Shown: positions 30,424-39,400 of the stretch, one piece after another
How the letters are laid out: the number at the start of each line of letters is the position of its first letter
How positions within the stretch are numbered: position 1 is the first letter of the stretch
Assembly: GCF_055900595.2 (NCBI RefSeq)
Contig: NZ_CM148325.1
Strand: one strand, 5' to 3'
Length of the DNA stretch: 64,000 nucleotides
Position numbers: made by a program

Positions 30424-33400
30424 TAAATTATACCCCAAAAGTAACTTGATACGGGGTGAAGGCGGTTGGCCTCTGGTTACAAAGAAATCCTGATATATAA
30501 GGGATTAGAGGGGGTTTTGTTGACGTCGGGAGAGTTCAGAAGAGGCATGTTGGCGGAAGATCACAGATGGTGACCAGCTTGGCATTAAAGTGGTTATAGG
30601 CATAAAAGCGCACACCAAATACCCAGGGTTTCAGCAAGGGATTATTGGTCGGGATCTGCCGGTGGTGTCCTGCTAATACCCGGCTGGCCGTTTCATCATA
30701 AAATTCAAGCAGTTCAATGATGTCTTTAACTGTCGTGGGAGGAAAATCCTCGCATTCACGTATTACAGCCGACATGACTTTACCAGATACCCGGGAAATA
30801 TGGCCTTCAGCAATCTTACGTATCAAGCTTTCCGTACATGGCGGTCAGGATGAATGACATTTTGCAATTCTGCGATATATGGTGCCAGAAGCTGGCTAAA
30901 AACACGCTTCTCTTCATGACTGGCAAGGCCATAGCACGACATGTACTTGTCAGCTAAGCTGACCAAATACTGTGCTGAGTTCCGACCAGTTATGGTAGTT
31001 ATAACGTAATGCCACTGCATCCCGGGCGTAGCTTAGATTGATATTGAGCGACCGTGAAAGGTATTTGGCGTGGGCTTTTGCTTCAGCGCATGTGGGGATT
31101 TGTTTCATGGTTTAAGTCTCTTATCTGTCCTATGTGCTCACGAATCATAAGAATCAAAGACACTTAACCAAAAAAGATTTGATAAGTCTGCGCTGCATTC
31201 CGCTTTGGCCGTGAGCTGCCGGGTCGCGCTAACCTTGTGCTTAACGTATTGGAAAGTAGCACCATTGTCAACAGAGCCATTGACCCTGCCGGGCTAACAG
31301 AGAGGTTAGACATGAAGCGAGGTGCGATGCTGGCAGGCATCAGGTGAGGGGCTGATACCACACTTCTGCCATGGTTTCTGAATTATCAATGTCCGCTTTT
31401 GGGCATAGACGAGATTCATGCTCGGCAGGGACCGTAGCAAGCGAAAAGCGGAGGTTCGGGAAGGTTGTGATTTGCTTTTAACCTTTGTAATTTAGAAGTA
31501 TTATTTTAAGATTAATCCACTTCCCATCGTCATCCTTTCGGTGTTCGTGAAAAGCTATTTTTAAGGTTATTGCCTCATGGAGTTATGGATATTTATAGTA
31601 GCGATTTATTTGATTTATATTCTTTTTTTCAAAAAGAAGAAAACTAAGTCCGCGGGCTCTTATACTTCCGCTCCTGTGAAAGCACCACCTAAAGAATGGC
31701 TTGCTAATAACAAAAAAAATCAGTCTGTAATGCACAACGAGGACAGCGAAGATGACAATCTGGCTACGTTTACACTAAGTGGCGGGCGGAATGCCGAATA
31801 CAGTATAACAGCCACTCAACGCCAGAATTTCTCAAAAACTACCGGTGCTTTGGCTCGCTGGATTTTACCGGGGGAGGTGATCACAGTCGGTGGGGTAGAG
31901 GTTACCGGCGGCTACTTCTATCTTGGACAGCGAATGAACCCTGTCGGGCATAACTCAGGCGGTTATTATGATGATAGTAGCGAGGCATCGCTAATTGACG
32001 ACACGCTCAAGATATACCCCACATCTTACATCTACGAAGATAGTTCATTAGGGTATTGGCCCAGTTATTCCTCACTTTCACCTGAAGCACGTGGCGCGTA
32101 CCTGAGTTGGCTTACCAGCGACAGATGTGACACTTCTTGCCCAATTGGTTACGTTTTTATTTATCTGTATGGTCTGGAAAGACGGGCGCTTGTTGACAGC
32201 AGGGACAGCAATATATCTGACGATGAGTTCTATTCTCTTTTCAAAGAGATCTGCCGTCTCAGATCTGTTTTCAATGAAAACAGATCATTCCGGAACTACT
32301 CGTCCCAGTTACTTGAAGCGATGTCCATTCTTCGTCCGAACGAAAATCTTGCAGCAGCTCTCAGCGATGATTCAGAGTTCAGCAATAGCATGCAGTTCAG
32401 GTTAATCCTGGCAAAGACTGTTGATGCAGGAGCCCCGGTTCCAGCGGATCTGGCTCTGACGTGGGTGACAAACCATACTGAATACTCATTACGAACCCCC
32501 GCCCGCCGCTGTGCGAAAGAATTTGCTGCACTATTTAAACGGCGTTACACCCTTAAATACGGTGAAGGGATGGTAGTGAAGCCGAATAAAGCGCGTCTGC
32601 GTTTAGATTACACGCCTGCAAGTCCCAGTTTGAGAGGTATTCGGCTTCCTGTTCCTGACTTGCCTGATCCAAGTGCATTGAAAGGCCCTGTTCAGAAGCT
32701 TATGACTCTTGCTGATATATGCACAGGTGAACTGGATGCTTACAGTCGTTACCTTGGTAGAAAAGGCACTTCAGCAAATGATACCGTTGCAATTTTGTTG
32801 CTGCCTTCAGAAATCGTTAACGAAAGCGCAGATAAAATATTAAGTGCATTCAAACGCTGGGCTGATGACGCGATCCTCAGTAAGGGGGGAGTAGTTTCAG
32901 TTGCTGACTTCTGGTCACACATGAATGCTACCTGTCCGGCAAAGATCAACAAAAAAGAGGCCGACTTGATGCAGGCCTTTGCACAGAAAATGGGGTACTG
33001 CCTGGCTCCTGACCCCTATTACCACCACGTAAAAGCAGATGTCGATGGTGTTCTTGTTTTATTCCCTGCTGGTGAAAGTGGCCGCTTCTCTCCTTCTCCT
33101 GAATTTATCACAGCTGTATTGACGCTCCGATTAGGTTCGGTAGTCGCCTTGATTGACAATTCTTTCGATCAAGCCGAACAGAAAGTGCTTGAGAATGCCA
33201 TCAACAACAATGTCAGCTTCAGCGATGATGAAAAGCGCTCTCTGCACGCATATTTAACGTGGCAGCTTCATACCCCGGCGAATATGACGGGAATGAAAAG
33301 CCGGATTGAATTACTCGGTGCAGCGGAAAAATCAGCTGTGGGTAAGGTTATCGTTAGTGTCGCTTGCTCTGACGGCAGAATTACGCCTGCCGAAATCAAA

Positions 33401-36400: not shown

Positions 36401-39400
36401 GGTTGATGATCTCTAAGCGCTGGTTCGAGCCTGCAGATATCCGGCAGAAACATTACTCCACACTACTACACCAGATCCTGGCTATTACTGCACAATGGGG
36501 AGGTGTTCGTGCCGATCAACTCTGGTCACAACTTTGCCAGACAGGTCCGTTCCGGAATGTGGATATAAATGACTTTAAAAGTCTGCTTAAACATATGGGG
36601 ACATGTGGCCTGCTCAGTCAACTAGCCAGCGGTGAAATAGTTGTCGGGGCTGAGGGGGAGAAGCTGACTAATCACTACACGTTTTATGCCGTATTCAATA
36701 CACCTGAGGAGTTTCGCATTGTAACGGGAAACCGAACTCTTGGCACAGTGCCTGTAGACTCCCCACTTTTGCCGGAGCAGCACATCATCTTCGGCGGACG
36801 GCGCTGGAAAGTGACAGAGATCGAGGTTGAAAAAAAGGTTATCTATGTTGAGGCGACTAAAGGCGGTCAGCCACCACTATTCAGTGGTAGCGGGATGTCT
36901 GTTCATGATGTTGTTCGCCAGGAGATGCTCGCTATCTACAGGGAAAATGATTACCGTATCGCGGTAGGCAACAAGAGAGTCGATTATGCTGATGCCGCAG
37001 CCAGAAGCCTCTTTGCGGAAGGAAGTGACAACTTCCAACGCTACAATCTACACAATGACTGTTTTATTGCCAGTGGTCAGAACTGCTACGTGATCCCGTG
37101 GATGGGGGATAAAATTGTCAATACAATTACGTCCCTGCTTATACGTTGTGGCTTTAAAGCCAGTTCATTTGCAGGTGTGATAGAGGTAGAGGACTCAGGC
37201 GTTGCCTCTGTCCAGCGTGTACTTAAGAAAATGCTATTGTCGGGGTTACCTTCAGAGTTTGAGCTTGCTGCAGTTGTTCCTGACAAGTATCTGGATAAAT
37301 ATGACGAGTATTTACCAGAGACTTTGCTTGCTAAAGGGTATGGGGCACAGGCGTATGATATAGAAGGAACGTGCACCTGGCTGCAGAAACACCTTCAGTA
37401 GACTGGATATGTAGTCAGGGTATAAATAACTTATTTATACCCTGATTTTTTTACTTCCCGGTGGACTTACTTGGCTTTAGTCCCGGAGTGTTGCCAGGAG
37501 TATCTTTATTATCTCGTCGGCGTTGATCTGGTTTTCCTGTCGATTTAGCAATTGGTTTTGGACCAGGTTTAAGACCCATGATAGTTATCCTTTTGAGATG
37601 TAAGAGGGAAGCCCTCAACATTGGTATATTGGATACTGAGAAATTTTTCAATGGGAGTGATAAACGGCCGAATGATTAACTCGATATTGTGATCAACGTC
37701 TGTTTTTTGCACACTGTAGACTGACTCTTGGAGCAGAAGGTTGCTCTGAGCGAGGAATGGACAGTTACACTCATCACCAACGCCAATAGCCTCATTACGC
37801 GTATAAAGCTGTATTAATCATTGGGGAACAGTTTAATGCGGGATTTTCGACTTATGGACTTGATTCAGGTGTCAAAATTAAAATGAGCAGTGTAAGGACA
37901 GACAAGTTCATTAGGTATGGTTTTGCGGTTGTGGCGATAGTTGCCATACTCATTACTACTATCACAACCCCCAATCCCACACCTTATCAATATATAGTTT
38001 ACCGAATAGTTCTGGCTCTGGCTGCCGGATGTATTGGTGCAGTTCTGCCTGGTTTCCTTGAAGTAAAATTTAATGGGTGGTTAAGAGCATCTGGCGCAGT
38101 GGCGATCTTCGCTATAGTGTTTTTCATAAGCCCAGATTTGCTTCAACAAAATCCTGAATCTGCAAGTAAACCTGTACCGCCTACTGTGATTGATGCATAT
38201 GCCGTTAATAGTTCCAATCGCGACAGATACCTCGAATTATTTCGAACAGGACAGTTCGGTCAGCGGGACAAGCTGCGCATCGGTTGTGTTGAGTGGAGTG
38301 AATCATCGTGCGTGGCTGCTGGTAATTTTTTGCGATTGTTAAGCGAAGCTGGCTGGGAAATCGATTCTGACGCTGTATTCAGAATGCAACCATCCGTGCC
38401 AGTTGAGGGGGTATCGATTGTAAGCCGTGGCGATGATCTGGTCGGTTTGCCAAAAGTACCACCCCACATGGGCCGTTGGAGTCGATCAGACATTAGTTAT
38501 GAAATTTTGACAGCGGCATTTAAATTGATGGGAGTTCCGGTTTATTTTTCCAGTGACCCGACATTACAACCAGGTACTACCGGAGTGTACTTTGGACCGA
38601 AACCGAAACTGGATGCACCAGTCATGCAAAAAGATGAGAATGTGCGACGTGAGCTTCTCCGCTACGTCGGTTTGGGAATGACTATTCAGCGAGCCTGCTC
38701 TCAGCAGCCCGTCGAACTTTGTGGGGGTGAAATCTTTTCCTGGGAAACGTCGGTATCTTCGTTCCTAAGGCAGCAGAGATTCAACTCCGATGCCGTAAAC
38801 AGATGGCTTGCCTTGCCGCAGGTTAATGCGGCTTCGGCAACTGCAGACATGAAAATAAAGCTAGATTTGTTAATGTCATTTGTTCTGGGCATCGAGTAAC
38901 TATACCTCTTGCGAGGATGATTGAGCGTCTAATGGACCAGCTTAGCCGTTAGCGCTATTTGTTTACGTAAGCCTGTGGAATCCAACTAGTGCTTCTACGA
39001 TGCGTTGTTTGGTGAAAAAAAAGTGTTGAAGCACTGGTTTTAGACAACTAAAGCCACGATTTGCTCATGCGTCGAAAATGTAGTCGTCTACTGTGTAGCA
39101 CGGAGGCGATATTCGTACGCTTACACTTGCCGATAGGCCACTGGGGAGTGTTCTTGGCACTAAGCTGCCAGGCCCGAAGGTCTGCTATGAGCGAGGGGCT
39201 GACATTCCTATTGGCATTCGGTGTGAGTTATCGGGGGCGGTCATGCGGCATACTTCCGATACAGGCGTTTCCAGCTCTGCCTGTTTCAGGGTTATATTAA
39301 TCTGCTTTAGAATTAATCGTGGCTTTAGCATCTGCACATCGTGCTGGAGAAACCTGAGTGAACTAAATCATATTCCCTTTCTTCAGCTAATCAATTGATA

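What the first reader, a model, noticed from the sequence alone, without database searches (positions are those of the whole stretch)
31577..37452. Three-gene TerB / P-loop ATPase / DExH-helicase operon (Shango-type candidate antiphage system)
Three co-directional genes with a 3-nt gap and a 4-bp ATGA overlap, closed by a 15-bp perfect-stem terminator. Gene 1 is a 769-aa protein with an N-terminal TM helix and a TerB-like domain; gene 2 a P-loop ATPase (GEYGSGKT / LLVSLDEM); gene 3 an SF2 helicase (GTAAGKT, DEFH, SAT, QRMGRSGRR). This is the architecture recalled for the Shango (SngABC) defence system; its mechanism and trigger remain poorly understood. It sits in an IS-riddled argW island beside another defence-like gene.
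Basis: partly seen in the sequence, partly recalled or inferred. Interest (0 to 1): 0.85.

Follow-up and report, generated by a model that had tools for sequence, protein, structure and literature searches.

The report
Known Shango antiphage operon (sngABC)
This is an intact copy of Shango, a three-gene bacterial anti-virus system already described and tested in E. coli, so the locus is ordinary, although nobody yet knows how Shango stops phages.

Summary
The three ORFs match the PADLOC SngA, SngB and SngC profiles at E = 2e-101, 1e-187 and 8e-278. They have the same lengths (769/438/732 aa) as the E. coli KTE113 Shango that Millman et al. 2022 cloned and listed as verified. Over the first 399 residues of each protein (all the supplement stores) they are 93.5%, 98.7% and 97.5% identical to it. 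An operon covering at least 80% of the query occurs in 442 of 5,426 complete E. coli genomes, several of them 100% identical, and on 600 plasmids. It moves as a 6.3-kb cassette: it lies in an argW island here and in a tRNA-Phe island in another strain. All catalytic motifs are intact and dN/dS is 0.10-0.20, so the genes are maintained by selection. Extra findings: SngA is a membrane-anchored, fast-evolving protein with TerB and winged-helix-like folds. SngB and SngC are a BrxD/BrxHI-like (ORC/Cdc6 ATPase plus Lhr-like helicase) pair, as in type-2 BREX. No nuclease or toxin domain is detectable. The mechanism remains unknown in the literature; my model (a membrane-tethered sensor that loads a helicase onto entering phage DNA) is inference. 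Novelty: already known. Interest is low.

The parts
31439..31576 (+). Conserved 138-bp upstream leader of the cassette; the native promoter is presumed to lie here or up to about 31108
   Evidence: Homology between the argW-island copy (window) and the tRNA-Phe-island copy (strain ESY001) begins at 31439. The verified KTE113 clone starts at the equivalent of window 31108. The consensus scan finds no strong sigma-70 site, so the promoter is not located.
31577..33886 (+). sngA: membrane-anchored TerB_N / TerB / TerB_C protein, 769 aa (identical DNA in strain FY10 is annotated WP_074520077.1)
33890..35206 (+). sngB: BrxD-like AAA+ ATPase, 438 aa (WP_000117529.1 in FY10)
   Evidence: PADLOC SngB 1.3e-187 over its full length; BrxD 1.1e-43. 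Pfam BrxC_BrxD PF10923 2.2e-151. Walker A G61-T68 and Walker B D242/E243 are invariant in distant homologues. NCBIfam BrxD 145.9 bits is below the cut-off of 350.
35203..37401 (+). sngC: Lhr/BrxHI-like SF2 DExH helicase, 732 aa (WP_000093090.1 in FY10)
   Evidence: PADLOC SngC 8e-278; BrxHI 1.6e-115. Pfam DEAD plus Helicase_C. AF2 pLDDT 78.2 with RecA1, RecA2, a winged helix, a beta-barrel and an alpha/beta C-terminal domain. Best Foldseek matches are Lhr 5v9x at 7.8e-28 and MrfA 6znp at 1.4e-23.
37413..37452 (+). Intrinsic terminator closing the operon
   Evidence: Scan, sequence and RNA fold of -21.1 kcal/mol with z = -5.7.
37453..37713 (.). 3' tail of the conserved cassette; holds a small convergent ORF that is frameshifted here
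   Evidence: Homology with the ESY001 copy runs to 37713. A 107-aa minus-strand ORF is annotated in ESY001. In the window it is split into 37451-37651 and 37569-37712.

Best explanation
The locus is an intact, selectively maintained copy of the known Shango (SngABC) antiphage defence system. It is a close allele of the E. coli KTE113 system already shown to protect against phages, and it is carried as a 6.3-kb cassette in an argW genomic island. That identification is shown (probability about 0.97).

How it works is inferred (probability about 0.3 for the model as a whole). SngA is tethered to the inner membrane by a single N-terminal helix, and a roughly 65-residue flexible linker joins it to a cytoplasmic body built of TerB_N, a winged-helix-like middle region, a TerB helical bundle and TerB_C. 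SngA is the sensor and recruiter: it sits where phage DNA enters, or where the membrane is perturbed. On triggering, it engages SngB, an ORC/Cdc6-type AAA+ ATPase of the BrxD kind. SngB loads or activates SngC, an Lhr-like (by analogy 3'-to-5') SF2 translocase, on the invading DNA or on its early replication or transcription intermediates. Motor activity then blocks phage genome establishment or replication without a dedicated nuclease. That would fit the modest 10- to 100-fold protection reported.
For: Identity:
- PADLOC SngA, SngB and SngC hits.
- Same lengths as the verified KTE113 system and 93.5%, 98.7% and 97.5% identity over the first 399 residues of each protein; the cloned upstream DNA aligns to window 31108-31505.
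- Phage protection is reported for the E. coli system in Millman 2022 and for the P. aeruginosa PA14 system (10-100-fold drop in plating efficiency) in Johnson 2023.
- The A-B-C order is conserved in 6 of 6 distant loci where SngA is only 32-44% identical and the flanks are unrelated.

Intact and under selection:
- All motifs are present.
- dN/dS is 0.195, 0.108 and 0.103 against a 97% allele.
- Several of the listed E. coli genomes carry 100% identical copies.

Mechanism clues:
- An N-terminal hydrophobic helix is present in 51 of 80 diverse SngA-family representatives, although that segment has no sequence conservation.
- SngA evolves fastest: 32-44% identity against 58-74% for SngB and 43-57% for SngC in the same loci.
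- SngB belongs to Pfam BrxC_BrxD.
- BrxD and BrxHI are a tightly linked pair in type-2 BREX; BrxD is classed as an ORC/Cdc6 AAA+ ATPase and proposed as a helicase loader (PMC12839542).
- SngC is closest in structure to Lhr and MrfA and groups with BrxHI, DruE and DpdJ in a defence helicase clade (PMC12278908).
Against: - No activity assay exists for this exact allele; SngA differs from the tested allele at 26 of the first 399 residues.
- The mechanism has no direct support. No interaction, localisation, substrate or trigger data exist for any Shango.
- SngB has no significant sequence match to any solved ORC/Cdc6 structure, so that classification is borrowed from the BrxD literature.
- 29 of the 80 SngA relatives show no N-terminal hydrophobic helix, though several of these have very short N-termini.
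- Lhr-like polarity is an analogy, not a measurement.
Confidence: 0.9

Rival explanations
1. Shango acts by abortive infection. Once SngA senses infection, the SngB/SngC motors turn on the host, through runaway ATP hydrolysis or unwinding of host DNA or R-loops. The infected cell stops growing or dies before phage are released.
For: No nuclease or other phage-specific effector is detectable in any of the three proteins. [quoted passage not shown] The plaque-size effect is compatible with population-level protection.
Against: [quoted passage not shown] That argues against classical abortive infection, in which cultures collapse at high multiplicity of infection. No toxin, pore, NADase or protease domain was found.
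Confidence: 0.2
2. The cassette's main role is competition between mobile elements (anti-plasmid or anti-conjugation, or protection of the element that carries it). Phage defence would be a side effect.
For: The operon lies on 600 plasmids at 80% coverage or more, 535 of the matching records predicted conjugative. These include roughly 316-kb Salmonella plasmids at 95.8% identity and 466 Klebsiella plasmids. It sits in different integrative islands in E. coli, argW here and tRNA-Phe in ESY001. Some E. coli islands carry it together with the anti-plasmid ApsAB system (PMC11096173).
Against: Direct phage-protection data exist in two species. No anti-plasmid assay of Shango was found in the library. 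Carriage on mobile elements is typical of antiphage systems in general.
Confidence: 0.1
3. It is a stress-response or DNA-repair module rather than an immune system: TerB-type tellurite or oxidative stress sensing coupled to an Lhr-type repair helicase.
For: TerB was first described in tellurite-resistance operons. The closest NCBIfam and PDB relatives of SngC are the repair helicases Lhr and MrfA.
Against: The SngC score against the ligase-associated Lhr model is 235.8 bits, below the cut-off of 850. No ter genes lie nearby. The locus is accessory: 442 of 5,426 genomes, in islands and on plasmids. Distant copies are flanked by defence-type genes such as a caspase-like peptidase, SIR2 and HEPN. 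Antiphage activity has been shown for a near-identical allele.
Confidence: 0.03
4. This particular copy is an inactive relic in a decaying, IS-riddled island.
For: The island is full of pseudogenised transposases. About 380 E. coli genomes keep only 3' fragments of sngC, so decay of Shango is common. The small convergent ORF just downstream is frameshifted here.
Against: All three ORFs are full length with every catalytic motif. dN/dS is 0.10-0.20. Several of the listed genomes from unrelated sources carry 100% identical DNA. The leader and terminator are conserved.
Confidence: 0.05

Closest known systems
Shango (SngABC) of E. coli KTE113, system SG206 of Millman et al. 2022 (Cell Host Microbe; preprint 10.1101/2022.05.11.491447)
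   Same: Same three genes, order and protein lengths (769/438/732 aa), with a homologous upstream region. Identity is 93.5%, 98.7% and 97.5% over the first 399 residues of SngA, SngB and SngC.
   Different: Allelic differences only: 26, 5 and 10 substitutions in the compared 399-residue stretches, concentrated in SngA. The genomic site of KTE113 was not determined here.
Shango of Pseudomonas aeruginosa PA14 (PA14_RS11735-11745; Johnson et al. 2023, NAR, PMC10250203)
   Same: TerB-like protein, ATPase and DEAD/DEAH helicase operon with experimentally shown antiphage activity (10-100-fold drop in plating efficiency).
   Different: It lies in a chromosomal core defence hotspot (cDHS1) rather than a tRNA-linked island. 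I did not compare the sequences directly. The PADLOC SngA profile is 528 positions long against 769 residues here, so the enterobacterial SngA carries extra sequence relative to the profile.
BrxD-BrxHI pair of type-2 BREX (Pgl)
   Same: SngB matches BrxD profiles (PADLOC 1.1e-43; Pfam BrxC_BrxD 2.2e-151). SngC matches BrxHI (1.6e-115) over its full length, with the same helicase, winged-helix, beta-barrel and alpha/beta C-terminal layout described for BrxHI. In both systems the ATPase gene directly precedes or accompanies the helicase.
   Different: The FY10 annotation shows no PglZ, BrxC, PglX methyltransferase or PglW in the neighbourhood. The NCBIfam BrxD score of 145.9 is below the cut-off of 350. 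A TerB protein takes the place of the BREX core, so there is no evident epigenetic self/non-self marking.
Lhr-Core and MrfA (YprA) DNA-repair helicases (PDB 5v9x, 7lhl, 6znp)
   Same: Best sequence and fold matches for SngC among solved structures: phmmer 2.6e-29, and Foldseek 7.8e-28 with the alignment spanning the whole chain.
   Different: Only 17-19% identity. There is no DUF1998 or Zn-finger module. TIGR04121 scores 235.8 against a cut-off of 850. The operon partners are different.
Other TerB-domain defence systems: Bunzi (BnzAB) and Dionysus (DinABC)
   Same: Each has a TerB-domain protein linked to a membrane and a proposed role in membrane surveillance.
   Different: Bunzi and Dionysus have no helicase or ATPase, and Dionysus uses a pore-forming effector. 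SngA adds TerB_N and TerB_C and pairs with DNA motors.

Membership tests
Shango (SngABC) | SngA: protein matching the Shango SngA profile, with TerB-family domains | tested here: met
   PADLOC PDLC03958 at 2.4e-101, covering residues 40-768. Pfam TerB_N 2.9e-49, TerB 8.4e-06 and TerB_C 7.5e-27.
Shango (SngABC) | SngB: ATPase matching the SngB profile | tested here: met
   PADLOC PDLC03959 at 1.3e-187, residues 1-438 against profile positions 1-439 of 439. Walker A and B are intact.
Shango (SngABC) | SngC: SF2 helicase matching the SngC profile | tested here: met
   PADLOC PDLC03960 at 8e-278, residues 2-729 against profile positions 3-719 of 720. Helicase motifs I, II, III and VI are intact.
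Shango (SngABC) | The three genes are adjacent, co-directional and in the order A-B-C | tested here: met
   A 3-nt gap and a 4-bp overlap. The same order is seen in 6 of 6 distant loci.
Shango (SngABC) | Close relationship to an experimentally validated member | tested here: met
   93.5%, 98.7% and 97.5% identity to KTE113 SngA, SngB and SngC over the 399 residues stored in the supplement. The C-terminal halves could not be compared because the stored sequences are truncated.
Shango (SngABC) | Confers protection against phages | not testable with these tools
   Published for the KTE113 and PA14 systems. Not assayed for this allele.
BREX (type 2 / Pgl) | Core genes pglZ, brxC/pglY and the pglX methyltransferase in the locus | tested here: not met
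   None is annotated within about 20 kb either side in the identical FY10 region. The two downstream ORFs have no BREX hits in PADLOC.
BREX (type 2 / Pgl) | BrxD equivalog score | tested here: not met
   NF033438 scores 145.9 bits against a curated cut-off of 350.
Tellurite-resistance (ter) operon | terZABCDE(F) gene set; a stand-alone TerB of about 150 aa | tested here: not met
   Only a TerB domain embedded in a 769-aa protein. No ter genes are annotated in the neighbourhood.
Lhr / ligase-associated DExH helicase | Equivalog-level match to TIGR04121 / PRK13767 | tested here: not met
   235.8 bits against 850, and 191.9 bits against 849. Only the first roughly 470 residues align.
MrfA/YprA (DUF1998) helicases | C-terminal DUF1998 Zn-binding domain | tested here: not met
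   No DUF1998 hit in Pfam. The fold match to 6znp rests on the helicase core.

The most novel reading that the evidence does not exclude
Shango may be a nuclease-free, membrane-tethered 'DNA-entry checkpoint'. A rapidly evolving SngA with winged-helix modules would capture phage DNA at the inner membrane and use an ORC/Cdc6-like loader (SngB) to place an Lhr-like translocase (SngC) on it. This is the same loader-helicase pair that type-2 BREX uses, so solving Shango would also explain the unexplained BrxD-BrxHI module of BREX. The evidence here does not exclude this, but it would be a finding about the Shango family, not about this locus.
Probability: 0.25. Interest if true: 0.55.

Novelty: already known. 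Interest (0 to 1): 0.18.

Why it matters
For genome annotation, it turns three generically named genes ('TerB N-terminal domain-containing protein', 'ATP-binding protein', 'DEAD/DEAH box helicase') into a named, validated defence system. It also shows that the system is a 6.3-kb cassette shared by E. coli islands and by large Klebsiella and Salmonella plasmids. For biology, the locus itself is not new. The open question is the Shango mechanism. The comparative points gathered here give concrete mutants and assays to test: a conserved membrane anchor, a fast-evolving SngA, winged-helix-like folds, no nuclease, and a BrxD/BrxHI-type loader-helicase pair.

Tried and rejected
3. Solved structures of Shango proteins: none for SngA or SngB by sequence. 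Profile searches gave only a TerB-like hit (2h5n, 1.9e-05) and sub-threshold P-loop hits.
4. Whether the two downstream genes (338 aa and 786 aa) belong to the system: rejected. They occur in 232 genomes against 442 for Shango. They are absent next to the tRNA-Phe-island copy, lie outside the shared cassette, and show no similarity to SngC.
5. Flanking repeats that might delimit the cassette: none convincing.
6. A promoter upstream of sngA: the consensus scan finds nothing better than chance, 7 sites found against 9.0 expected.
7. An Rfam element in or next to the operon: none.
8. Phage-borne copies: only one partial match (38% coverage, 82.8% identity) at the end of a Klebsiella phage record.
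9. Anantharaman et al. 2012 (the paper that defined TerB-N and TerB-C): it is not held in the library, so its predictions could not be quoted.

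
Full report
**1. Observation**

- The first junction reads TAG tga ATG, a 3-nt gap. The second reads ACTATGAGC, an ATGA overlap.
- After the third stop codon comes a 15-nt perfect inverted repeat (TCAGGGTATAAATAA, then C, then TTATTTATACCCTGA) followed by seven T, ending at 37452.
- The terminator scan picks this up. As RNA it folds at -21.1 kcal/mol, z = -5.7, and none of 200 shuffles folds as well.
- All quoted motifs are present: Walker A GEYGSGKT (residue 61) and Walker B LLVSLDEM in gene 2; GTAAGKT (47), DEFH (155), SAT (193) and QRMGRSGR (355) in gene 3.
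- Gene 1 begins with a strongly hydrophobic stretch followed by KKKK (Kyte-Doolittle 19-residue score 2.07).
- The context is as described. argW (tRNA-Arg CCT) lies at 46003-46077 on the minus strand beside an integrase ORF. The identical region of E. coli FY10 is annotated with many IS and transposase remnants.

**2. What it is**

The defence-system profiles give an unambiguous answer: SngA 2.4e-101, SngB 1.3e-187 (full length) and SngC 8e-278 (full length). The runners-up are BrxD (1.1e-43) and BrxHI (1.6e-115).

Pfam agrees with the domain description:
- Gene 1 has TerB_N (98-309), TerB (519-624) and TerB_C (644-768).
- Gene 2 has BrxC_BrxD (2.2e-151).
- Gene 3 has DEAD plus Helicase_C.

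Shango was described in parallel by Millman et al. 2022 and Johnson et al. 2023. The supplement of Millman et al. lists the verified construct SG206, Shango from E. coli KTE113. It is 6,700 bp, with SngA of 769 aa, SngB of 438 aa and the helicase of 732 aa, the same lengths as here. Over the 399 residues of each protein kept in the stored file, the window proteins are 93.5%, 98.7% and 97.5% identical to it. The start of the cloned insert aligns to window 31108-31505. The window therefore carries an allele of the type Shango system of E. coli.

**3. Distribution and mobility**
- An operon covering at least 80% of the query is found in 442 of 5,426 complete E. coli genomes. Several of the listed genomes, from birds, pandas and humans, are 100% identical.
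- About 380 further genomes keep only 3' fragments of sngC, often beside an IS3 element.
- A 97% allele in strain ESY001 lies in a tRNA-Phe island with completely different neighbours. The DNA shared by the two islands is window 31439-37713, that is, the three genes plus 138 bp upstream and 312 bp downstream.
- The two ORFs downstream in the window (338 aa and 786 aa) lie outside that cassette and occur in only 232 genomes. They are neighbours, not components.
- The operon is also on 600 plasmid records at 80% coverage or more: 466 matching records are from Klebsiella and 144 from Salmonella (the latter at 95.8% identity on roughly 316-kb plasmids), and 535 are predicted conjugative.
- No intact copy is in the phage collection.

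**4. Is it functional?**

All ORFs are full length with intact motifs. Against the ESY001 allele, dN/dS is 0.195 for sngA, 0.108 for sngB and 0.103 for sngC. All three are under purifying selection, least strictly on sngA.

**5.

SngA belongs to a large family: 1,791 clusters at 50% identity score E < 1e-30. The conserved core spans residues about 93-767, and the N-terminus is variable.
- An AlphaFold model built on 80 diverse sequences is confident (mean pLDDT 86.3). It shows a helix at 2-18, a disordered stretch at 21-85 and a folded body from 90 to 768.
- The N-terminal segment has no sequence conservation, yet 51 of 80 family representatives carry a hydrophobic helix there. Several of the others have very short N-termini. 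The membrane anchor is therefore a conserved trait.
- Two stretches of the model have the helix-strand-helix-helix-strand-strand order of a winged helix, at about 416-497 and about 699-768. A weak profile hit to Nse1 falls at profile positions 328-426.
- I could not obtain aligned residue ranges, so the winged-helix reading is tentative. No credible nuclease fold appears.

SngB is the most conserved of the three, at 58-74% identity in loci where SngA is 32-44% identical. Its Walker A (G66-K67-T68) and Walker B (D242-E243) are invariant. It ends in an acidic tail with a conserved L-x-x-F-x-L terminus.

SngC is 43-57% identical in the same loci.
- Its model (pLDDT 78.2) shows two RecA domains, a helical winged-helix region, a beta-barrel (about 502-552) and an alpha/beta C-terminal domain (about 569-731).
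- The best structural matches are Lhr (5v9x, 7.8e-28) and MrfA (6znp, 1.4e-23), in line with the sequence search.
- This is the layout a 2026 NAR analysis describes for BrxHI. That paper also classes BrxD as an ORC/Cdc6 AAA+ ATPase, notes that BrxD and BrxHI form a tightly linked pair in type-2 BREX, and proposes BrxD as a helicase loader (PMC12839542).
- A helicase phylogeny places SngC with BrxHI, DruE and DpdJ in a defence-specific SF2 clade (PMC12278908).

In six of six distant loci reached through diverse SngA representatives, the gene is followed by a BrxC_BrxD ATPase (435-454 aa) and a DEAD helicase (731-750 aa) in the same order. The flanks are unrelated and often defence-like: a caspase-like peptidase, SIR2, HEPN ApeA, DUF3800.

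**6. How it most likely works**

Shown:
- Identity with Shango.
- An intact ATPase and helicase.
- A conserved membrane anchor on SngA.
- A strict three-gene unit.
- No recognisable nuclease, toxin or modification enzyme.

Inferred (about 0.3 for the whole chain):
- SngA, tethered to the inner membrane with its body in the cytoplasm (positive-inside rule: KKKK follows the helix), senses entering phage DNA or a membrane or ion disturbance. Its faster evolution fits a component that meets phage factors.
- SngA engages SngB, which loads or activates SngC on the foreign DNA.
- The Lhr-like translocase then disrupts genome establishment or early replication.
- The absence of a nuclease would fit the modest protection reported: about 10-fold for two coliphages and 10-100-fold in Pseudomonas.

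Rivals:
- Abortive infection through host-directed motor activity (0.2). [quoted passage not shown]
- A primary role in plasmid or mobile-element competition (0.1). The heavy plasmid carriage suggests it, but it is untested.
- A stress or repair module (0.03). The published plaque assays and the accessory, island-borne distribution contradict it.
- An inactive relic (0.05). The intact motifs, purifying selection and identical copies in many strains contradict it.

**7. Comparison with known families**

It is a member of Shango on every testable criterion (see the membership table).
- It is not BREX: there is no PglZ, BrxC or PglX, and the BrxD equivalog score of 145.9 is below the cut-off of 350.
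- It is not a ter operon.
- It is not an Lhr or ligase-associated helicase (235.8 bits against 850).
- It is not a DUF1998/MrfA helicase.
- It does share its ATPase-helicase pair with type-2 BREX.

**8. Novelty and verdict**

The system is already known. A near-identical allele from the same species has been cloned and shown to protect, and standard tools (PADLOC) identify it immediately. The library search found no paper that resolves the mechanism, so the general question remains open. That is a property of the family, not a discovery at this locus. Interest: 0.18.

Noticed in passing
window 39543-41903 (+) and 37883-38899 (+): Two genes downstream of Shango. One is a 786-aa protein with an HSDR_N restriction-endonuclease-like N-terminus (Pfam 7.6e-09), a P-loop-like GDAQSGKS motif and a weak AAA_22 hit. 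The other is a 338-aa protein with predicted N-terminal hydrophobic segments and no Pfam family. Both match PHROG families over essentially their full length (phrog_26510 at 1894 bits; phrog_23803 at 1.8e-169). PADLOC has no specific model for either; the 786-aa protein has only weak hits to restriction-modification methyltransferase models (best E = 1.4e-05). The pair occurs in 232 E. coli genomes. This may be an uncharacterised defence candidate, independent of Shango.
   Followed up: partly
window 37451-37712 (-): Inside the conserved 3' tail of the Shango cassette lies a small ORF convergent with sngC. It is an intact 107-aa hypothetical protein in strain ESY001 (L010 11873-12196) but is split by a frameshift into two overlapping ORFs in the window. 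Its function and its relation to Shango are unknown.
   Followed up: partly
window 31400-37500 compared with the plasmid collection: The same operon lies on 600 plasmid records at 80% coverage or more. 466 matching records are from Klebsiella (80-90% identity) and 144 from Salmonella enterica (95.8% identity on plasmids of about 294-323 kb); 535 are predicted conjugative.
   Followed up: partly
window 36610-37401 (3' end of sngC) compared with E. coli genomes: About 380 complete E. coli genomes, CFT073 among them, keep only a 90-800-bp remnant of the 3' end of sngC, often next to an IS3 transposase. Shango loss by IS-mediated deletion appears common.
   Followed up: no
window 35155-35203 (C-terminus of SngB): SngB ends in an acidic tail (…EESDDDDGLANFRL). 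Its last residues, L-x-x-F-x-L, are conserved in homologues that are otherwise variable there. It looks like a short docking motif for a partner protein.
   Followed up: no
window 26698-26849 (-), 15980-16102 (+), 20324-20393 (-): Rfam hits elsewhere in the island: a group II intron D1-D4 domain (89 bits; FY10 annotates an ltrA reverse transcriptase/maturase nearby), the isrC Hfq-binding sRNA (150 bits), and the IS10 antisense RNA-OUT (97 bits).
   Followed up: no
window 1-7000 and 11001-14000: The left end of the window carries the csc sucrose-utilisation genes (cscB, cscK, cscA). A 3-kb block of 60-62% G+C, far above the surrounding 45%, may correspond to the IS66-family (tnpC) element annotated near the start of the FY10 locus; I did not map the coordinates.
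   Followed up: no
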